A DNA stretch of 64,000 bases from Minisyncoccota bacterium (GTDB lineage Bacteria; Patescibacteriota; Minisyncoccia; Phycocordibacterales; UBA918), in NCBI GenBank assembly GCA_022841645.1, contig JALHRC010000001.1, positions 33,346 to 97,345 of the forward strand, in the 5' to 3' direction. The notes under the pieces are model-generated. The model saw only the letters and a program-made list of their open reading frames with translations. It searched no databases and was not told the origin of the DNA. Every line of letters starts with the position of its first letter. Position 1 is the first letter of the stretch. The translations under genes were made by a program, and so were the position numbers. Positions 52,481 to 58,588 of the stretch are shown piece by piece.

Positions 52481-53215
52481 TTATACTTCGGGCTGAAAGT
52501 TATTACGGCTCCAGTTCCATAAAATTGGATGGAGCGTAATCGGGGCAATGCCGGTATTTTGAAGAAGGGTAAACCACGCCGCCGCTACCTCTTCAGGAGA
52601 AGCTCCAGCTGGTACAAGACCAAGGTGTACTGAACACTGCTGTACGTGCGTGTCGGGAATAATTGAAAGTTGCTCTTTGTTCTGCAACGGTATGTCGGTG
52701 TAATGGTGGAGAATGTACAGCCAGTAATTGGCCATTTTGCCGCCATTTAGGTAGGGAAAGTCGACCTTGTGTTCACGCAAATAAGGAATAACACTCGGGA
52801 CATCGTAGTGGTGTGTTTTCAGAAGTAAGCGTGGGTCACTGTGCCAGTCGCGGTGGAGTGTGGTGCATAGCCGATGCCAGATGGCGGTATGTTTGTTCTC
52901 TTGTAGTGAGAGCTTGTGTTTCCGTAGGTCACTGCGCAGTTTTTCGTATGGTGCAGCGACGACGAGCTCAGGAAAAAACACATAGTTCGTTTCCGGATCT
53001 TCCCACGTGGCGAGCGCCGCCCGCCATAGAGCGGGGCTTTGACGTTGAAAGTTGAGCGCTGGTGCAAGAGTAAAATACAAGTAACGTTCGCGACTATCCC
53101 GCGGCAGGTCTGGATGTACTTCATGTTCGTGTTCACGCGGGATAGCGCCGGCATCCCAGAGTGCCATCAGTTTTTTAACTTTTGCGAGTGGTAAGTCGTT
53201 CATGGCTTCTGGCAT
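52481..53215 (-). CDS. Hypothetical protein embedded in fpg-X-ung operon (possible DNA-repair glycosylase/accessory; family not recognised)
   Basis: 244 aa, Trp/His-rich, with no motif I can assign by eye. Overlaps the fpg 3' end by 16 nt and has slightly lower G+C than its neighbours. Confidence 0.45.
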   Translation of the reverse strand: MPEAMNDLPLAKVKKLMALWDAGAIPREHEHEVHPDLPRDSRERYLYFTLAPALNFQRQSPALWRAALATWEDPETNYVFFPELVVAAPYEKLRSDLRKHKLSLQENKHTAIWHRLCTTLHRDWHSDPRLLLKTHHYDVPSVIPYLREHKVDFPYLNGGKMANYWLYILHHYTDIPLQNKEQLSIIPDTHVQQCSVHLGLVPAGASPEEVAAAWFTLLQNTGIAPITLHPILWNWSRNNFQPEV

Positions 53216-54060
53216 TTAGGGCAATAATGGGTGCCGCGGCCGGCGCAGCGGATCTTTACAATGTTGGTGCCACATACCGCGCAGGGAGTATTTTGTTTGC
53301 CAAAGACACGCAGGTAGTCAGAGAAGTTGCCCTTCTCGCCGCCCGTGTCGGCAAAATGTTGGAAGGTGGTGCCGCCGACAGCGATTGATTCCGAAAGTAC
53401 GTCGCGGGCAGCCACCGCCACGAGGCGCAGGCGTGGCAGTGAAAGGGAAGTACCTAAGCTCGTAGGGCGTACCCCGGCGCGAAAAAGCGCTTCGTCGACG
53501 TAGATGTTCCCGAGGCCCGCGATGAATGACTGGTCGAGGAGAATGGCCTTGATGGGTGTGCGACGCTTTTTGGCACCGCGTACAAATGCTTCCACATCAA
53601 ACGTGTCGCTGATCGGTTCGGGGCCAAAGGCGGCGCGCGCTTCCTCTACCTCGCGTGGACTCGCGAGTTTGGTGTAGCCAAAAAGCCGCATGTCGTTGAA
53701 GTAGAGGGTGCTGCCGCCCTCCAAGTGAAAAGCCACGCGCGTGTGCTTACTTGGCAGTGTGGTGTCGATGGGGGAGAGGGTGTGCCCGCCACCCGACACT
53801 TTCCCCTTGTCTACATAGAGAAACTGCCCGGTCATCTTAAGGTGCGCGAGGAGGTGGTGCGCGGAGTCTTGAAAAGACACAATAAGCAGCTTTCCTACGC
53901 GGTCGATGTCAGCGATGGTAAGTCCTTTGAGTTTTCGGCCAATGGCGCGATCGTGTGCGACAGTTTTGGGGTGAAAAACCTCTACGCAGGCGATAGTTTT
54001 GCCGCGTACTTTCTGTCGTAACTGTAGGCGCACCGTCTCGACTTCGGGTAGTTCGGGCAT
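53200..54060 (-). CDS. mutM: Formamidopyrimidine-DNA glycosylase (Fpg/MutM)
   Basis: MPELPEVETVRLQL, the N-terminal catalytic Pro2/Glu3; a H2TH region; a C-terminal zinc finger CAVCGTNIVKIRCAGRGTHYCPKCQ. Confidence 0.9.
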   Translation of the reverse strand: MPELPEVETVRLQLRQKVRGKTIACVEVFHPKTVAHDRAIGRKLKGLTIADIDRVGKLLIVSFQDSAHHLLAHLKMTGQFLYVDKGKVSGGGHTLSPIDTTLPSKHTRVAFHLEGGSTLYFNDMRLFGYTKLASPREVEEARAAFGPEPISDTFDVEAFVRGAKKRRTPIKAILLDQSFIAGLGNIYVDEALFRAGVRPTSLGTSLSLPRLRLVAVAARDVLSESIAVGGTTFQHFADTGGEKGNFSDYLRVFGKQNTPCAVCGTNIVKIRCAGRGTHYCPKCQKP

Positions 54061-54193
54061 AGGGAAGTGGGGTCATTCTAGCACTCAAAGAGGTGGGTGT
54101 CGTGCCTAGGGCAGGCCAGAGTAGCCTTGTTTTTAGCCATGCCCACGGGCTTTGGGCGAGGGGCTTGACAGTAAGGCATATATATTGACAAAT

Positions 54194-54222
54194 CGAATAG
54201 AATTTGCTATACTATATGTGTA
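54194..54222 (+). promoter_or_regulatory. Consensus sigma70 promoter (TTGACA-17-TATACT) with no ORF for ~400 nt downstream
   Basis: TTGACA at 54194-54199 and TATACT at 54217-54222. A second TTGACA lies at 54174-54179. The region 54061..54632 is A+T-rich and lacks ORFs of 60 aa or more. Confidence 0.5.
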
Positions 54223-54534
54223 GAGTTCCTCCTTAGGTACGTGACTTGGGTTACTACCTCGTTCTCCAGAATAGTAAGCGTTGTGTCGAAAACGACAAGT
54301 GTACTTTGTTAGTTTTCGGTAGAACGCTCACTGGATGGTGAGAACGGTTCTTTGACTTTGACGTAAATAAAAAGAAATCAGGACTTCCGAGAAGCTTTCT
54401 TGTCCCATCTACGGCGTTGCCTGCGTCGCAAAAACATTCACTGTACGTCTAGTACAGCTTATGCTTTTGCTCCTGGGCGCCTTGTAGCTAGAACAATAAA
54501 TCTTCTCTTAAAACAGAATCTAGCGAGCGAATTG

Positions 54535-54596
54535 CGGCGACCGAGGTGTTTGGGTGATGTGGTGTTTCTATACCACCTCGCCACCTCGGTCGCCGC
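54535..54596 (+). promoter_or_regulatory. 15-bp perfect inverted repeat hairpin immediately upstream of the lipoprotein gene RBS
   Basis: gcggcgaccgaggtg ...32 nt... cacctcggtcgccgc. The RBS gaagggaga lies at ~54618 and the ATG at 54633. Confidence 0.4.
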
Positions 54597-54632
54597 GATC
54601 CTGCGGCACCAATTCCCTGAAGGGAGAACGCC

Positions 54633-55205
54633 ATGCGCGTGCTTCGTAACTTGGGCGCCTGCTTGGCGCTCCTCCTCTCGCTCGTCGCCTGCGCTACCAC
54701 CCAGACCGGTGGAGCGCAGTGGGCCGGCCTCGACGCGGACCGCTGGGGCGGGGTTCTCTGGATCAAGGAGACCACCCGTACCCGCCAGATGATGGCGGGT
54801 CTCACCGGGGCGCAGCGGTTCGCGCAGCTCTATGCGGCGATCAATCCGCGTACGCCCGCCGATCGCATCAGCGGCGTCGAGCCGGGTCGGAACGGACCGG
54901 TCACCATGACCATCCGTTCCGGTCCCACCGTCCACTGGCGGGGTGAGGGGCAGATCGACAATGGCATCGCGCGAGTGCGCGTGCCGGCGGGGACGAGGAT
55001 TCCCTCGACTGCGTCCCTCTGCGCCGTCTTCCCGACGACGCTCGGCCCGAACAATCAGGTTAGCCCGCGTGAAGATATCGTGGCGAGAGGCGAAGAGGGT
55101 CGAACGGCCTGCCTCGATGGGCGGATCTTCGACTACTTCGTCAACCAGAGCCGCGGTCGGCGAGCGGAGGACGGCCTGGCCGTCCTTGGCTTCGAAAGGA
55201 GCTGA
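54633..55205 (+). CDS. Lipoprotein of unknown function (G+C-rich islet)
   Basis: Signal peptide with lipobox LLLSLVAC; 190 aa. Codon usage is strongly GC3-biased, unlike the core genes. Confidence 0.55.
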   Translation: MRVLRNLGACLALLLSLVACATTQTGGAQWAGLDADRWGGVLWIKETTRTRQMMAGLTGAQRFAQLYAAINPRTPADRISGVEPGRNGPVTMTIRSGPTVHWRGEGQIDNGIARVRVPAGTRIPSTASLCAVFPTTLGPNNQVSPREDIVARGEEGRTACLDGRIFDYFVNQSRGRRAEDGLAVLGFERS

Positions 55206-55207
55206 GG

Positions 55208-55783
55208 ATGATCAAGCGTCGTTCTATCATCTTCGCTGCCGGAGCGAGCTTGCTCGCTCCGGCGGTGGCCACAGCCCGTCAGTCGCGTTCGAACTACGAG
55301 CCGGTCTGGTGGAATGCCACCACCGGCGTCTCCGAGTGGCGGCAGCTGGGTGCGCGACCGCAGCGGGAGACCGCGACGTTTGCGCAGTTCCTTGCCATGC
55401 CGCGCGTGCGTCGGGCTCTCTCCGAGAACCCGACCACAGCGGCAGTGCGGGCAGCGGCACTGGGTGCGGAGATGGGGCGTGTGAAGCGGGAACATCCCCG
55501 CGGCAATGTTCATCTCTTCCAGCACCAGCGGTTCGACATCATGGGCTTCGCCGCCCCGCGCGGTAGCCAGAGTGGTGTCGCTTCGCTGGCCACCAACGTC
55601 CTCCTGACCGCTTCGCTCGACGGTGTCAACACCGCGGGTTGGGTGGTCAACGAGTACTGGAGCGGTGGTGGTGTTCAGGCTGCCGAGTGGGCTGTCTGTG
55701 GCAACTCCACCCTCGACGGTCACGGCTCCACACTCCCATGCGAGTGCGTCCCTCGGCTGGGTGACTTCTGCCCACAGTCCTGA
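55208..55783 (+). CDS. Secreted protein of unknown function (G+C-rich islet; possible Tat-type signal)
   Basis: MIKRRSIIFAAGASLLAPAVATA signal (RR motif); 191 aa. Starts 3 nt after the lipoprotein gene. Confidence 0.5.
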   Translation: MIKRRSIIFAAGASLLAPAVATARQSRSNYEPVWWNATTGVSEWRQLGARPQRETATFAQFLAMPRVRRALSENPTTAAVRAAALGAEMGRVKREHPRGNVHLFQHQRFDIMGFAAPRGSQSGVASLATNVLLTASLDGVNTAGWVVNEYWSGGGVQAAEWAVCGNSTLDGHGSTLPCECVPRLGDFCPQS

Positions 55784-55904
55784 TCGGTGTTGGCCGTCGC
55801 GTTACAGATGTTTCGCGACGGCTCCACCACCTTTTTATTTTTATTATTCTCGCGTACATGGTGTAGGTGAGAATAACTGAAATAAAAATAATTATTTATT
55901 GACT

Positions 55905-57200
55905 ATGCAAATCTTTATCAAAGGTACTTTAATTGCGGTTGTGGCCATTGGAGTTTTCTCTTCAGTAGTGGTTTTCGACCTGCAACAGCACGCTGGCTAC
56001 CTTACTTCCACAGTAGCCGCTTTCGGTGAAGGTGGTAATGATGGTGGTGGTGGTAATGACGGCGGTAGTAACGGTGGTGATGGTGGTAATGATGGTTGTG
56101 GTGGTTGTAATCCTGCACCTGCTGACCCGGGAGGCGGCGGCACCACTAACCCCCCTTCAAACGAAAACGGTGGTGATATTCCACCCCCTCCACCCCCGCA
56201 GCCTCCGGCAAACATCCCGCCCGTGTGTACCTTACAGGCAAACCTTACCTCAATCGTGCGGGGTAACAGCGCAGTCCTCACCTGGACCATGAGTGCCGAC
56301 ACCACCGGTGCGACGCTCAATGGCGCTTTCCTGGCCGTCGGAAATGGTTCACAGACGGTCTCTCCGACTGAGACTATTACCTACACCATATTAGTAACCG
56401 ATGGCGAACTCTCTTCTACGTGTGCCGCTACGGTAACGGTTACTACCACTCCCACTACACCGACCTTCACGTGTGAAAACAACGTGACCTTGAGCGTTAG
56501 TCCAACCCGTATCACGCGTGGCAATAGTGCAACAATTTCCTGGAACGTTACGGGTGCAACCAGTGTGTCGATCGATAATGGGGTGGTGACCAATAATGCC
56601 CGTTCTGGATCGGCAGCCGTGTCGCCTAGCGACAGCACCACCTATACACTTACCGCAGTGAAGGGTGCTACTACCATTACCTGCGCGGTAACGCTTACTG
56701 TAGAGAGTGGTGGCGGAGGTGGGGGTGGTGGCGGTTCTTCTACTCCCCGCTGTGAGCTCACGGCGTCTGACCGCACTATTCGCTCGGGCGACCGGGTCAC
56801 CCTCCGTTGGGAGACGTCACGCGCTACCTTTGTCGAAATTCGCGACAATCGTAACAATGTGATTGTGACCACCCGCGGCAAGCTTGGTCGCGATAAGGAA
56901 GAGCTGTATGACGGCAGCATTACCGTGCGTCCAGCCCGCGATACCACTTATACCCTCACGGCAGAACGTGGTAGTCGTGATCGTGAATGTACGGTAAAGA
57001 TCGATGTGAGTGACGACGTTACGGTAATCCGTGATCAACAGCCACTCGTGGTCAGTATCCCACTTTCCTCACTACCGTACACTGGTGTTGACGCAAAGAC
57101 GGCGATGCAGCTCTCGATATTGGCACTCCTTGTAGCATGGGCCGGGTACCTCGCGTACACCTTCTACCGCCGCGACAAGTTGGCAGTAGTGAAGCGCTAA
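55905..57200 (+). CDS. Sortase-anchored (LPxTG-type) surface protein with three Cys-bracketed Ig-like repeats
   Basis: N-terminal TM/signal; a Gly/Asn/Asp-rich tract and P9 linker. Three ~85-aa repeats (C..L..(R)GNSA.L.W.......TYTLTA..G....C..T..V). C-terminal LPYTG + hydrophobic helix + RRDK tail is the classic sorting signal. Confidence 0.75.
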   Translation: MQIFIKGTLIAVVAIGVFSSVVVFDLQQHAGYLTSTVAAFGEGGNDGGGGNDGGSNGGDGGNDGCGGCNPAPADPGGGGTTNPPSNENGGDIPPPPPPQPPANIPPVCTLQANLTSIVRGNSAVLTWTMSADTTGATLNGAFLAVGNGSQTVSPTETITYTILVTDGELSSTCAATVTVTTTPTTPTFTCENNVTLSVSPTRITRGNSATISWNVTGATSVSIDNGVVTNNARSGSAAVSPSDSTTYTLTAVKGATTITCAVTLTVESGGGGGGGGGSSTPRCELTASDRTIRSGDRVTLRWETSRATFVEIRDNRNNVIVTTRGKLGRDKEELYDGSITVRPARDTTYTLTAERGSRDRECTVKIDVSDDVTVIRDQQPLVVSIPLSSLPYTGVDAKTAMQLSILALLVAWAGYLAYTFYRRDKLAVVKR

Positions 57201-57268: not shown

Positions 57269-57356
57269 TGAGTTTCCATGAGGAAACCCCACCCGAGGGA
57301 TACGGGTGGGGTGTGTGGTAGACGGACGACACAAGTGCGTCGTCCGTCTACCACCG

Positions 57357-57896
57357 TTAACGCCTGGCCTCGGCCACTTCATCATGCCCACCATTTTCAT
57401 CGAGGGCACGCAAGGCCGCGAGTTCGCTGCGTACCCGTTCCTCCCCGGCGTAGTGCCAGCAGCGGCGTGACATATTCCAGTCAGAGAGTGGATGCTGGCG
57501 AGCCCGGAGGCGGGCACGCACGAGCGAGTACGCTACCTCAAGATAGTCGTCCAGGTTGTCGCGGGGACGTAGGCCACGCCTTTCTGCGGCATCAAGGTGT
57601 CGGCCGATAAGCTGAAGCACGCCATAGCCGCCCGGCTTACGAACATTATGTGTCAGTCGACCGTCCGGCAGGCGGTGCGCAAAACCAGTCACCTCGCAGG
57701 CGGCGACGCGCACCATCTCCGTCCCAATTTCAGGGGTAGGGGCGCGAGCACGGATAAGCTCAATGACGAGCTCGGCACGCTCAAGTAGCTGTGGGGGTAA
57801 ATTGTGTGGACTCAAGGCCCAGGCGCTCTTCGCTGCGCTCGCTGCTACCAAATTGGCGGCGATGAGTGCGGCGACGAGAAGTGTTTTTTTGAACAT
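57357..57896 (-). CDS. Secreted protein, possibly lytic-transglycosylase (SLT)-like (G+C-rich islet)
   Basis: Signal peptide MFKKTLLVAALIAANLVAASA. Has ..ACEVTGF.. followed by GGYGVLQL, reminiscent of the SLT catalytic Glu and GLMQ motifs. Weak assignment. Confidence 0.4.
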   Translation of the reverse strand: MFKKTLLVAALIAANLVAASAAKSAWALSPHNLPPQLLERAELVIELIRARAPTPEIGTEMVRVAACEVTGFAHRLPDGRLTHNVRKPGGYGVLQLIGRHLDAAERRGLRPRDNLDDYLEVAYSLVRARLRARQHPLSDWNMSRRCWHYAGEERVRSELAALRALDENGGHDEVAEARR

Positions 57897-58088
57897 GGTC
57901 CTCTCTCACGAACGAGCGTGAACGGACCTCCCTGTGTGTTTTTTGAGTGGCTCGCTTTTACAAGCGGGCCCATTTTTGTACTTCCATAGCGTATGACGGA
58001 TGAAACTGACATTTCTTTCATGCAGTAGAAATATAGCGAGCCCCCGCCGCGGCGCGAGCCGGGGCGGGGGTACGTCGGTTGAAGAACT

Positions 58089-58457
58089 TCAGGCGGCCTG
58101 GCGCTCCTTCTTGCGCGCGGCCTGCTCGGCGGTGGCCATGATGGACTTCATGTCGCGGAGGTACGCTGCGCCCTTGAGCGTCCGCTGCACGAGCATGCTG
58201 CGACGGTCCGTCGGGTCCACCTTGCGACGGGCGAGGTCGAGCTCGCCGAGCCGATCGAGCGCCCTCGTGATCGCCGGTTTCGAGACGTTCAGCTTCGCCG
58301 CGAGGCCGCGCACCGTGTGCGGCCCTCCCTCGAGATAGACGGTGAGGAACACGCCGAGCTGGCGGGCCGAGAGATCGGGCCCGTCGCGGCGCACCAGCGC
58401 GACCACGGTGTCGCGGAGGATACCCACCAGCTCGTCGGGATTGGATTGATTGGCCAT
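58089..58457 (-). CDS. MarR-family transcriptional regulator (G+C-rich islet)
   Basis: Winged HTH: LTRRQLGVFLTVYLEGGPHTVRGLAAKLNVSKPAITRALDRLGELDLARRKVDPTDRR. Confidence 0.8.
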   Translation of the reverse strand: MANQSNPDELVGILRDTVVALVRRDGPDLSARQLGVFLTVYLEGGPHTVRGLAAKLNVSKPAITRALDRLGELDLARRKVDPTDRRSMLVQRTLKGAAYLRDMKSIMATAEQAARKKERQAA

Positions 58458-58588
58458 CGTTGGCCTCCTATGAAAAAGGCGGAGGATACCACCATACTTA
58501 GATAGTAAACTATACTTGCTAAACTGTCAATAGTATGTTGGGCCGCGGACACGTAGTGTCCGCGGCCTTTTTCGGGTAGTATGGCGGC

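What the first reader, a model, noticed from the sequence alone, without database searches (positions are those of the whole stretch)
54520..55830. G+C-rich islet 1 with foreign codon usage: lipoprotein + secreted protein pair
Seen: from ~54520 the composition shifts abruptly to visibly higher G+C; by eye roughly two-thirds versus about one-half for the core genes. Codons are GC3-saturated (GCC, CGC, GGC, CTC). The two genes encode a lipobox protein (LLLSLVAC) and a Tat-like-signal protein, and have no similarity I can recognise. The islet ends in a hairpin + T-run at ~55795-55830. It is preceded by an A+T-rich 570-nt ORF-free spacer with its own consensus promoter. Inference: horizontally acquired DNA, plausibly from a high-G+C (Actinobacteria-like) donor. 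For a Saccharibacteria-like epibiont the host would be exactly such a donor.
Basis: partly seen in the sequence, partly recalled or inferred. Interest (0 to 1): 0.55.

Follow-up and report, generated by a model that had tools for sequence, protein, structure and literature searches.

The report
Swappable GC-rich surface-protein gene cassette
The G+C-rich islet is real, but no sign was found that it is DNA borrowed from an actinobacterial host: it is the variable two-gene insert (a lipoprotein plus a secreted protein) of a conserved cell-surface locus in a small group of Patescibacteria, it differs between close relatives, and every version of it is G+C-rich.

Summary
Observation confirmed. Window 54633-55783 is 67.1% G+C against 53.9% overall. 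It is the most extreme 1150-nt stretch in the window (+4.6 SD). It holds two real genes: a lipoprotein (isl1) and an RR-signal protein (isl2). A near-consensus promoter lies upstream and a true terminator downstream.

Searches of 5.8 billion proteins and 1.84 billion representatives found relatives only on contigs that look patescibacterial, none actinobacterial.

In the window and 10 other lineages a lipoprotein/secreted-protein pair sits in front of a large surface-protein gene. Wherever enough flank is assembled it also follows fpg, the same promoter and leader, and a conserved 69-nt hairpin.

The content of this slot is incongruent with its flanks. Genomes whose Fpg is 85% identical carry pairs only 31-35% identical. 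One carries an unrelated pair and one is empty. Identity jumps from 47% to 93% within about 50 nt at the end of isl2.

All 11 versions are G+C-richer than their flanks (mean +9.6 points; GC3 +0.22). The window's cassette uses the resident codon dialect.

Best reading: a hypervariable surface-protein cassette exchanged among relatives, with a maintained G+C excess. Protein function and the cause of the excess remain open.

The parts
53200..54060 (-). fpg (formamidopyrimidine-DNA glycosylase). Conserved left anchor of the locus, transcribed divergently from the cassette.
   Evidence: Pfam Fapy_DNA_glyco, H2TH and zf-FPG. It is the same neighbour in L001, L007, L100 and L016.
54185..54213 (+). 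Sigma-70-type promoter TTGACA-17-TATACT with an extended -10 TG.
   Evidence: 11 of 12 matches. Conserved almost base for base in window, L001, L007, L100 and the empty-site genome L016.
54274..54331 (+). Stem-loop in the 5' leader (GTAAGCG...CGCTCAC).
   Evidence: RNAalifold on 4 sequences: 8 of 20 predicted pairs show compensatory changes. Also present in L107.
54531..54599 (+). Conserved 69-nt G+C-rich hairpin with 15-bp perfect arms (GCGGCGACCGAGGTG). It marks the left edge of the G+C-rich segment, 34 nt before the isl1 start codon.
   Evidence: The 116-nt stretch 54525-54640 that contains it folds at -61.9 kcal/mol, z -5.5. Unique in the window. Arms conserved in window, L001, L007, L100, L103, L097 and L106, upstream of very different cassettes. 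L107 keeps pairing through C-G to U-A changes. Absent from the empty site in L016.
54620..54627 (+). Ribosome-binding site AAGGGAGA.
   Evidence: Read from the sequence. GGAG-type motifs lie at the same place in relatives.
54633..55205 (+). isl1: 190-aa lipoprotein (signal peptide plus lipobox LVAC) with a beta-sandwich-like mature domain and two conserved Cys. First cassette gene.
   Evidence: ORF. GC3 0.81. dN/dS below 1. A rare family with 13 hits in 1.84 billion representatives; 8 of the 10 distant hits are small proteins with a signal peptide and a lipobox-like ...AC or ...GC motif or are TM-anchored. AF2 pLDDT 66.8, all-beta core, with no significant PDB fold match. A repeat in P0011 that matches the isl1 core is Pfam FlgD_ig.
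55208..55783 (+). isl2: 191-aa secreted protein with a twin-arginine-like signal (KRRSIIF...ATA) and a conserved C-terminal CxN...CxCxP..GDxC motif. Second cassette gene.
   Evidence: ORF. dN/dS below 1. Partner genes in distant versions are homologous (hmmsearch E 1e-8 to 1e-11; alignment). RR is present in 6 of 9 aligned versions. The AF2 model is unusable, pLDDT 43.7.
55786..55843 (+). Intrinsic terminator: hairpin 55786-55828 plus T-run 55832-55843. Right edge of the cassette.
   Evidence: -27.9 kcal/mol, z -5.6. The stem sequence differs but pairing is kept in L001, L100, L096, L106 and L107.
55832..55888 (+). Conserved palindromic motif (TATTCTCGCGTACA N3-4 GGTGTAGGTGAGAATA) upstream of the large surface-protein gene. 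Probably an operator or promoter element.
   Evidence: 27-nt arms, 81% complementary. The core is nearly invariant in all 8 aligned loci, including the empty site L016 and the distant L098 and L102. Unique in the window. This region is 93-96% identical between L001 and L103.
55905..57200 (+). Large surface protein with Ig-like repeats and a C-terminal LPYTG + TM + RRDK sorting-signal-like end. Conserved right anchor. The ORF list starts it at TTG 55899; homologues suggest ATG 55905.
   Evidence: ORF. Weak Ig_3, DUF7927 and LPXTG_double hits. Homologues follow the cassette in all loci. C-termini are [LV]P[YH]TG + TM + YRR in the fpg clade.
57357..57896 (-). Convergent secreted 179-aa protein. 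A conserved member of the neighbourhood.
   Evidence: Homologues occupy the same position in L001, L016, L100 and L103. No Pfam hit.

Best explanation
Shown: the islet is the variable insert of a conserved envelope locus in one small clade of Patescibacteria. The nearest labelled genomes are Paceibacteria, Parcubacteria or 'Kaiserbacteria'.

The frame of the locus is fixed. It runs: fpg (divergent) | near-consensus promoter | structured leader | conserved 69-nt hairpin | [two genes] | intrinsic terminator | invariant palindromic motif | sortase-signal-like Ig-repeat surface protein | convergent secreted protein.

The two genes between hairpin and terminator always encode one lipoprotein (or TM-anchored protein) and one signal-peptide protein. 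Their sequence is not inherited in step with the frame. Close relatives carry versions 30-45% identical, a non-homologous pair, or nothing.

Inferred: whole cassettes are replaced by homologous recombination in the conserved flanks. In some genomes only the C-terminal domain of gene 1 plus gene 2 is replaced. This is the pattern of surface loci under diversifying selection. The two exported proteins most likely act together at the cell surface, with each other or with the adjacent adhesin. They may serve as a specificity or recognition module.

Shown: the G+C excess is a shared, persistent property of whatever occupies the slot. It affects amino-acid composition and synonymous sites while keeping the resident codon dialect.

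Inferred: it is therefore maintained, not a fading signature of one recent foreign import. Possible causes are recombination-associated GC-biased conversion, selection on the mRNA, or circulation within a G+C-rich cassette pool.
For: Conserved synteny. Type-A orthologues in L001, L007 and L096 occupy the same place. Distant family members in L100, L103, L097, L098, L102, L107 and L110 sit in the same pair-plus-large-protein order. L100 shares the whole 10-kb left context.

Incongruence. Fpg of L100 and L007 is 85% identical, but their isl1 and isl2 are 34-35%. For L001 and L103 the large protein is 74% and p179 62% identical, but the isl1 C-terminal domain is 34% and isl2 31%.

Breakpoints. 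In the L001/L103 scan identity is 33-52% across the cassette, 65-83% in most flanking windows (an indel-rich stretch of the large gene drops lower) and 93-96% just after isl2.

Other slot states. L016 is an empty site with the same promoter and downstream motif, and it is nested in the clade. L106 has the same hairpin and terminator but a non-homologous secreted-protein plus lipoprotein pair.

Conserved flanks.

G+C. The excess is present in 11 of 11 lineages. Type A stayed G+C-rich through dS of about 0.7-1.7. Codon dialect is shared with the host genome.

Distribution. There are no relatives outside these contigs and none beside fpg in 80 GTDB species.
Against: All but one version are homologous. 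Very fast in-situ divergence could therefore mimic replacement.

Phylogenies rest on one protein (an Fpg NJ tree) and on short contigs.

No recombination event was dated.

Protein function is unsupported by any family or fold match. The isl2 model failed.

The cause of the G+C excess is not identified. For type A alone, slow amelioration from a very G+C-rich ancestor is not numerically excluded.

Confidence: 0.6

Rival explanations
1. One reading: a recent horizontal acquisition from a high-G+C donor such as an actinobacterial host, not yet ameliorated.
For: The G+C jump is strong and sharp, and the segment is the top tetranucleotide outlier. It is absent from the nearest GTDB representative and from 79 other related species beside fpg. 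GARP-rich proteins.
Against: No homologue was found outside patescibacterial contigs in 5.8 billion or 1.84 billion proteins; plasmids gave nothing for either protein and viral contigs nothing for isl1. Orthologues lie in conserved synteny in relatives with dS of about 1 or more. Codon dialect matches the resident genome: CTC rather than CTG, with GGT and CGT kept. GC2 is 0.57 and GC3 0.78. There are no mobility genes, tRNA or direct repeats. The lineage is not clearly Saccharibacteria.
Confidence: 0.05
2. Purely vertical, native genes that evolve extremely fast in place, with no exchange. L016 lost them, and the L106 pair has diverged beyond recognition. The G+C excess would come from selection on protein composition or on the mRNA.
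For: Ten of 11 versions belong to one family pair. The position is fixed. The neighbouring surface protein also evolves fast, 47-74% identity. Within type A, divergence roughly tracks the flanks.
Against: Identities do not follow the Fpg tree. L007 is closer to the window (58%) than to its Fpg sister L100 (35%). L001 and L103 are nearest by flanks yet 31-34% identical in the cassette. Identity steps abruptly from 47% to 93% within about 50 nt. L106 shows no detectable homology although its hairpin and terminator are nearly identical.
Confidence: 0.2
3. The cassettes are repeatedly imported from an unsampled G+C-rich pool, for example an unknown mobile element or phage of Patescibacteria, or an unsampled G+C-rich patescibacterial lineage. 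The G+C content would reflect that pool.
For: Unrelated cassette content (L106) is equally G+C-rich. The excess is seen in all versions. Hairpin-bounded cassette architecture.
Against: No copy was seen in any other context except L098/L099, L102 and L110. These look patescibacterial and have the smallest (L098, L110) or an ordinary (L102) excess. Searches of viral contigs with isl1 and with the hairpin found nothing. Resident codon dialect. Among the 5 loci with housekeeping flanks, cassette GC3 ranks exactly as flank GC3 does. That fits equilibration with each host genome plus an offset.
Confidence: 0.15

Closest known systems
Replacement-type flexible genomic islands: same-site, variable-content surface loci such as O-antigen, capsule or glycosylation islands, exchanged by recombination in conserved flanks (from my own knowledge)
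   Same: Fixed chromosomal position. Conserved flanks. Content that is highly divergent or non-homologous between close relatives. Atypical composition. Cell-surface products. No integrase or tRNA.
   Different: Only about 1.2 kb and two genes. It encodes exported proteins, not glycan-synthesis enzymes. It is bounded by a conserved RNA-type hairpin and a terminator. The composition is shifted up in G+C in every version. To my knowledge, the classical islands usually deviate toward low G+C.
Polymorphic toxin / immunity modules (CDI CdiA-CT/CdiI, Rhs-CT, LXG) with swapping of the C-terminal domain plus the downstream gene
   Same: In L001 and L103 a conserved N-terminal part (TM, Ig-like domain, Pro/Ala linker) is followed by a swapped C-terminal domain and a co-varying small downstream gene. 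Composition differs from the rest of the locus. Several types coexist in one sample series.
   Different: No toxin or immunity domain was detected. The padloc library was not scanned. The variable domains mostly belong to one family. The downstream protein has an export signal. In most genomes gene 1 is a plain lipoprotein. There is no secretion-system context.
Integron gene cassettes
   Same: A short cassette expressed from an external promoter. Hairpin-forming sequences lie at the cassette boundaries. The 3' hairpins conserve structure but not sequence.
   Different: No integrase within 10 kb on either side. It is the 5' hairpin that is sequence-conserved. The 3' hairpin is followed by a T-run and behaves as an ordinary terminator. 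There is one slot, not an array. attC core sites were not tested.
Classical horizontally acquired genomic islet from a distant donor
   Same: Compositional anomaly. Patchy distribution among related species.
   Different: No donor homologues. Resident codon dialect. Orthologues in synteny. No mobility signatures.

Membership tests
Horizontally acquired island from a distant (actinobacterial) donor | Atypical base composition relative to the host genome | tested here: met
   67.1% against 53.9% G+C, +4.6 SD, and the top tetranucleotide outlier.
Horizontally acquired island from a distant (actinobacterial) donor | Closest homologues lie in the proposed donor lineage | tested here: not met
   The only relatives are on contigs that look patescibacterial. 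isl1 found nothing in plasmids or viral contigs and isl2 nothing in plasmids; the isl2 viral scan could not be run.
Horizontally acquired island from a distant (actinobacterial) donor | Codon usage of the donor rather than of the recipient | tested here: not met
   RSCU correlates with resident genes (rho 0.65). CTC, GGT and CGT preferences are shared. The comparison with actinobacterial usage rests on general knowledge, not on a tool run.
Horizontally acquired island from a distant (actinobacterial) donor | Mobility signatures: integrase, tRNA target, flanking direct repeats | tested here: not met
   No tRNA in 45-64 kb. No meaningful flanking direct repeat. No integrase Pfam in 10 kb either side of the homologous loci.
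Replacement-type variable locus (same site, different content, exchange via conserved flanks) | Same position and conserved flanks in related genomes | tested here: met
   The promoter, leader, hairpin, terminator, motif and large gene are conserved across loci.
Replacement-type variable locus (same site, different content, exchange via conserved flanks) | Content divergence incongruent with flank divergence, including non-homologous and empty states | tested here: met
Replacement-type variable locus (same site, different content, exchange via conserved flanks) | Demonstrated recombination events (population data or formal tests) | not tested
   This needs complete genomes and read-level data. 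Only identity matrices and a one-protein NJ tree were available.
Bacterial lipoprotein (isl1) | Signal peptide ending in a lipobox [LVI][ASTVI][GAS]C | tested here: met
   MRVLRNLGACLALLLSLVAC in the window. ...AACG...IAAC and ...LTAC in relatives. Read by eye; no predictor was available.
Bacterial lipoprotein (isl1) | Lgt and LspA processing machinery in the genome | not testable with these tools
   Only 64 kb of the genome is available.
Tat substrate (isl2) | Twin-arginine motif, then a hydrophobic region, then an AxA site | tested here: inconclusive
   RR is present in 6 of 9 aligned versions: KRRSIIF, RRHFLG, TRRGFV and others. L102 and L103 have Sec-like signals, and the L096 N-terminus looks frameshifted.
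Tat substrate (isl2) | tatA and tatC present | not testable with these tools
   A regex scan found no TatA-like motif in the 64-kb window. The rest of the genome was not seen.
Integron cassette | Adjacent tyrosine-recombinase integrase and attI/attC sites | tested here: not met
   No integrase in the neighbourhood of the homologous loci L001 and L100. The 3' hairpin is a terminator with a T-run. attC core sites were not scanned for.
Polymorphic toxin-immunity pair | Recognisable toxin domain, plus an immunity protein in the compartment where the toxin acts | tested here: inconclusive
   No domain hit in Pfam, NCBIfam or PDB. The isl1 core looks like a beta-sandwich, FlgD-Ig-like by one weak link. 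Architecture and co-variation are compatible.
Sortase-anchored surface protein (neighbouring large gene) | C-terminal LPXTG-type motif, then a hydrophobic segment, then a basic tail | tested here: met
   LPYTG, VPYTG or VPHTG, then a TM segment, then YRR(D)K. A sortase gene lies next to the trio in L098, but the L098 large protein itself lacks this C-terminal motif. No sortase was found in this 64-kb window.

The most novel reading that the evidence does not exclude
The slot is a dedicated cassette-exchange system of Patescibacteria. The sequence-conserved 69-nt hairpin (left) and the structure-conserved hairpin (right) would act as recombination or capture sites, not merely as RNA elements. 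They would shuffle G+C-rich 'specificity cassettes' among co-occurring populations. The lipoprotein/secreted-protein pair would be a lock-and-key or toxin/immunity-like recognition module. It would set which host, or which kin, the episymbiont's neighbouring adhesin engages.
Probability: 0.12. Interest if true: 0.85.

Novelty: new variant of a known kind. Interest (0 to 1): 0.55.

Why it matters
To my knowledge most Patescibacteria (CPR) are thought to be episymbionts, and little is known about what determines which host they attach to. This locus offers a concrete candidate. It is a strongly promoted, hypervariable pair of exported proteins, wired next to a sortase-type Ig-repeat adhesin. At least four versions coexist in one sample series.

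It is also a cautionary case for composition-based detection of horizontal transfer. The strongest G+C outlier in the window looks like neither a recent nor a distant import. It is a slot whose occupants are always G+C-rich. That makes it a small, well-defined system for asking what maintains local G+C excess in bacteria: biased gene conversion at a recombination hotspot, or selection.

The two protein families, and a third pair in L106, match no Pfam family. isl1 and isl2 also match nothing in NCBIfam or among PDB sequences, and carry no name in the sources consulted.

Tried and rejected
- Pfam and NCBIfam on both proteins, their distant relatives and the L106 pair: nothing.
- PDB sequence search with profiles: nothing meaningful.
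- AF2 of isl2 from 4 sequences: pLDDT 43.7, unusable.
- Rfam on 53900-56000: only two sub-threshold chance hits, one of them the hairpin scoring as 'mir-995'.
- Viral contigs searched with the isl1 profile and the hairpin pattern: none. The isl2 family alignment was too divergent for that tool.
- Plasmid tblastn: none.
- Hairpin-pattern scan of metagenomes: it also returned L105, a 23-nt identity inside an epimerase gene of an unrelated G+C-rich contig. I judged this chance.
- Integron reading: rejected, because there is no integrase and the 3' hairpin is a terminator.
- Antisense or alternative-frame ORFs in the islet (54943-55566 +, 55133-55723 -): rejected as by-products of high G+C. The GC3 pattern, frame conservation and dN/dS support the two + strand genes. 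A minus-strand gene call in L102 is the same artefact.
- Assembly chimera: rejected, because 8 independent contigs agree.
- Literature searches on accession numbers and on Patescibacteria hypervariable surface loci: nothing relevant.
- 'Persistence through dS above 1 proves maintenance': softened. A back-of-envelope decay calculation shows that type A alone could still be ameliorating from a GC3 of about 0.95. The argument rests instead on all deeply diverged versions sharing the excess.
Full report
**1.

The window averages 53.9% G+C. The stretch 54633-55783 is 67.1%. It is the maximum of all 1150-nt windows (mean 0.539, sd 0.029), and the runner-up is 0.631 near 57290. It is also the most deviant of 274 windows in tetranucleotide usage.

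Two + strand ORFs fill it:
- isl1, 54633-55205, 190 aa, with signal MRVLRNLGACLALLLSLVAC, a lipobox.
- isl2, 55208-55783, 191 aa, with MIKRRSIIFAAGASLLAPAVATA, which is twin-arginine-like.

GC1/2/3 are 0.65/0.57/0.81 and 0.66/0.57/0.75, against GC3 of about 0.42-0.65 elsewhere. 'Saturated' is too strong. At fourfold sites isl1 is 0.81, but isl2 is 0.68, which is within the normal 0.46-0.71. Much of the excess is amino-acid composition: G+A+R+P make up 0.38-0.40 of residues.

The spacer 54061-54632 is 48% G+C and has no credible ORF. It carries TTGACA-17-TATACT with an extended -10 at 54185-54213. The 3' end is a hairpin (55786-55828, -27.9 kcal/mol, z -5.6) followed by a T-run.

Neither protein matches Pfam, NCBIfam or PDB sequences. 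The same DNA was assembled independently in 8 Logan contigs.

**2. The genes are real and old in this lineage.**

A search of 5.8 billion proteins gave only three close relatives of isl1/isl2. They lie on L001 (Logan), L007 (NCBI JACCDR01) and L096 (Logan). In the loci where the flanks are assembled the order is the same: fpg divergent (seen in L001 and L007), spacer, isl1, isl2, then a large Ig-repeat protein (seen in L001 and L096).

Codon alignments give dN 0.18-0.43 and dS 0.7-1.7, and third positions vary most. The flanking fpg, udg and nqr-like genes have dS of 1.8 or more, or are saturated. The pair is therefore protein-coding, under purifying selection, and predates the split of these four genomes.

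In all four the pair is G+C-rich: 61-70% against about 50-56% in the flanks.

**3. Lineage.**

A scan with Fpg of one genome per GTDB species returned 80 loci at 54-77% identity. Nearly all are Patescibacteria MAGs (two carry other labels), labelled Paceibacteria/-ota, Parcubacteria, 'Kaiserbacteria' or 'Nomurabacteria', plus generic 'Saccharibacteria' labels on automated bins. The premise of a Saccharibacteria-like epibiont with an actinobacterial host is therefore not established.

None of the 80 loci has the pair within 10 kb of fpg. This holds by tblastn and by family HMMs on six-frame translations.

**4. The pair belongs to a rare, wider family that always sits in the same kind of slot.**

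An exhaustive profile search of isl1 against 1.84 billion representatives found only 13 proteins. Of the 10 distant hits, 8 are small proteins with a signal peptide and a lipobox-like motif, or TM-anchored versions; P0009 is an N-terminally truncated call. None is named by any source. The other two hits are P0011 and P0016, large repeat proteins.

Their contigs show again a lipoprotein, then an isl2-like secreted protein, then a large surface protein (L097's contig ends before the large gene). The second genes are homologous to isl2, with E 1e-8 to 1e-11 and a shared CxN...CxCxP..GDxC end.

L100 shares the entire left context of the window: GH15, truB, DEAD helicase, apbE, nqr-like, udg, fpg. 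In L098 the trio lies next to a sortase gene.

**5. The slot has a conserved frame.**

The promoter and the first part of the leader are conserved base for base in window, L001, L007, L100 and L016. A leader stem-loop at 54274-54331 shows compensatory changes in 8 of 20 pairs.

Immediately 5' of the ribosome-binding site lies a 69-nt hairpin at 54531-54599. The 116-nt stretch that contains it folds at -61.9 kcal/mol, z -5.5. Its 15-bp arms are conserved in window, L001, L007, L100, L103, L097 and L106. L107 keeps the pairing through C-G to U-A changes. The hairpin is unique in the window. It coincides with the point where the G+C content rises.

At the 3' side, each locus has a terminator hairpin of different sequence but preserved pairing, followed by a T-run. 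Next comes a nearly invariant palindrome, TATTCTCGCGTACA...GGTGTAGGTGAGAATA, at 55832-55888 with 27-nt arms. It precedes the large gene in every locus, including distant ones.

**6. The content is not inherited with the frame.**

On an Fpg NJ tree, window, L001, L007, L100 and L016 form one clade. L016 is sister to the window and L100 is sister to L007. The slot contents do not follow this tree:
- L016 has no pair at all. Its promoter and leader run into the T-run and palindrome in front of its large gene.
- L100 Fpg is 85% identical to L007 Fpg, but L100 isl1 and isl2 are 31-35% and 31-42% identical to those of the type-A group (the 42% over only 50 aligned residues). Within that group the values are 58-79% and 57-66%.
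- L103 is the closest relative of L001 by the large protein (74%) and by p179 (62%), and it shares an N-terminal TM + Ig-like + Pro/Ala-linker extension of gene 1. Yet the C-terminal domain of gene 1 is 34% identical and gene 2 is 31%.
- L106, fetched through the hairpin sequence, has the same hairpin, terminator and palindrome. Between them it encodes a 221-aa signal-peptide protein and a 225-aa lipoprotein. Neither shows detectable similarity to isl1 or isl2.

A sliding comparison of L001 and L103 gives 65-83% nucleotide identity in most flanking windows (an indel-rich stretch of the large gene drops lower) and 33-52% across the cassette. Identity jumps from 47% to 93-96% within about 50 nt at the end of gene 2.

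At least four cassette types occur in one sample series, SRR28154515-31: the window type, the L001 type, L097 and L107.

The simplest account is replacement of the cassette by recombination in the conserved flanks, plus one loss. In L001/L103 the unit replaced is the C-terminal domain of gene 1 plus gene 2. Extremely fast divergence in place remains a weaker alternative.

**7. The G+C excess goes with the slot.**

In the window and 10 other lineages the cassette is G+C-richer than its flanking genes. The difference ranges from +1.4 to +17.8 points (mean +9.6), and GC3 averages +0.22. It is positive in 11 of 11 lineages. This includes the non-homologous L106 pair, at 66% and 69%.

These versions are far beyond synonymous saturation from one another. 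A single ancient foreign signature therefore cannot explain the shared excess.

The window's cassette also speaks the resident codon dialect. RSCU correlates with 27 resident genes (rho 0.65). CTC is the dominant Leu codon, GGT the top Gly codon, and CGT is high in both. To my knowledge, high-G+C actinobacterial genes instead favour CTG and GGC and avoid T-ending codons.

Among the five loci with housekeeping flanks, cassette GC3 ranks exactly as flank GC3 does. This is suggestive only, with n = 5. It fits equilibration with each genome plus a constant upward offset.

I cannot tell what maintains the offset. Candidates are GC-biased gene conversion at a recombination hotspot, selection on a highly structured mRNA, or circulation in a G+C-rich cassette pool.

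**8. What it probably does.**

Both products are exported. One is tethered to the membrane, as a lipoprotein or through a TM segment. The other is released or exported via an RR-type signal in most versions.

The isl1 model has moderate confidence and an all-beta core. It has no significant fold match. One weak sequence link joins its core to FlgD-type Ig-like repeats.

The downstream gene encodes an Ig-repeat protein ending in LPYTG + TM + RRDK, a sortase-type sorting signal. The convergent neighbour is another conserved secreted protein.

I infer an envelope recognition or adhesion module. Its two variable partners are inherited and swapped together. Diversifying selection from host specificity, phage pressure or kin discrimination would explain the hypervariability. 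This step is inference. No experiment or domain match supports a specific activity.

**9. Comparison with known systems.**

It behaves like a miniature replacement-type flexible genomic island. In L001/L103 it resembles the C-terminal-domain-plus-partner swapping of polymorphic toxin systems. However, no toxin or immunity domain was detected, and the partner protein is exported.

It is not an integron cassette. There is no integrase, and the 3' hairpin is a terminator.

It fails three of four criteria for a distant-donor island: donor homologues, donor codon usage and mobility signatures.

**10. Verdict.**

- Observation: confirmed.
- Interpretation: partly supported. Horizontal exchange is supported, but among relatives at a dedicated slot. 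A recent actinobacterial or host import is not supported.
- Novelty: a new variant of a known kind, involving three protein families with no match in the curated libraries scanned and a persistent local G+C excess that remains unexplained.

Noticed in passing
window 57290-58460 (p179 at 57357-57896 -, MarR at 58089-58457 -): A second G+C-rich patch (63% over 1150 nt). The MarR-family gene is 69% G+C, with GC3 0.89 and fourfold GC3 0.94, the most extreme in the window. tblastn found no counterpart in any of the 96 loci held at that point (the 106 final loci were not re-searched), including L001, whose gene order differs here. It is a better candidate for recent horizontal acquisition than islet 1.
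   Followed up: partly
window 55832-55888: A nearly invariant palindrome with 27-nt arms (TATTCTCGCGTACA N3-4 GGTGTAGGTGAGAATA) lies upstream of the large surface-protein gene in every related locus, even distant ones and the empty site. It is probably an operator or promoter element. It is more conserved (93-96%) than any coding flank.
   Followed up: partly
window 54214-54345: The 5' leader transcribed from the strong promoter is structured. A stem-loop at 54274-54331 shows compensatory changes. It is conserved even in L016, where no cassette follows and the leader runs into a T-run. It could be a small RNA or a regulatory leader. There is no Rfam match.
   Followed up: partly
window 54385-54520: The window's leader carries about 128 nt (roughly 54386-54513) that are absent from L001 and L007. 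The extra stretch includes a small hairpin at 54441-54457 that scores as terminator-like on both strands.
   Followed up: no
window 52481-53215 (-): A 244-aa protein with no Pfam match lies between fpg and udg. It overlaps the fpg stop. It is present in the window and L001 (79% identical) but absent from L016 and L100, and a different gene takes its place in L007. This is another variable spot next to fpg.
   Followed up: partly
L001 10001-10450 and L103 101-550: In two genomes gene 1 is not a lipoprotein. It carries an N-terminal TM segment, an Ig-like domain similar to the repeats of the neighbouring large protein (31% identical to window 56487-56702), and a Pro/Ala linker. These are fused to the variable C-terminal domain.
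   Followed up: partly
L098 9037-9735: In a more distant relative (from a crustacean metagenome) the lipoprotein, secreted-protein and large-protein trio lies directly downstream of a sortase gene and in a different chromosomal context (gyrB, pheST, dnaE). However, the L098 large protein does not end in the LPXTG-type motif seen in the fpg clade. No sortase was found in this 64-kb window.
   Followed up: partly
window 57357-57896 (-): The conserved convergent neighbour is a secreted 179-aa protein. By eye it has a CES...G..LQ-like stretch reminiscent of transglycosylase/Rpf-type domains. It has no Pfam or NCBIfam hit, so this is only a lead.
   Followed up: no
L096 467-560: The isl2 orthologue on this Logan contig appears to have lost its signal peptide through a frame change near the 5' end. 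This may be an assembly error or a real inactivation.
   Followed up: no
L105 10402-10424: A 23-nt exact identity to the left arm of the hairpin lies inside an epimerase gene of an unrelated G+C-rich metagenomic contig. I judged it a chance match given the size of the collection.
   Followed up: yes
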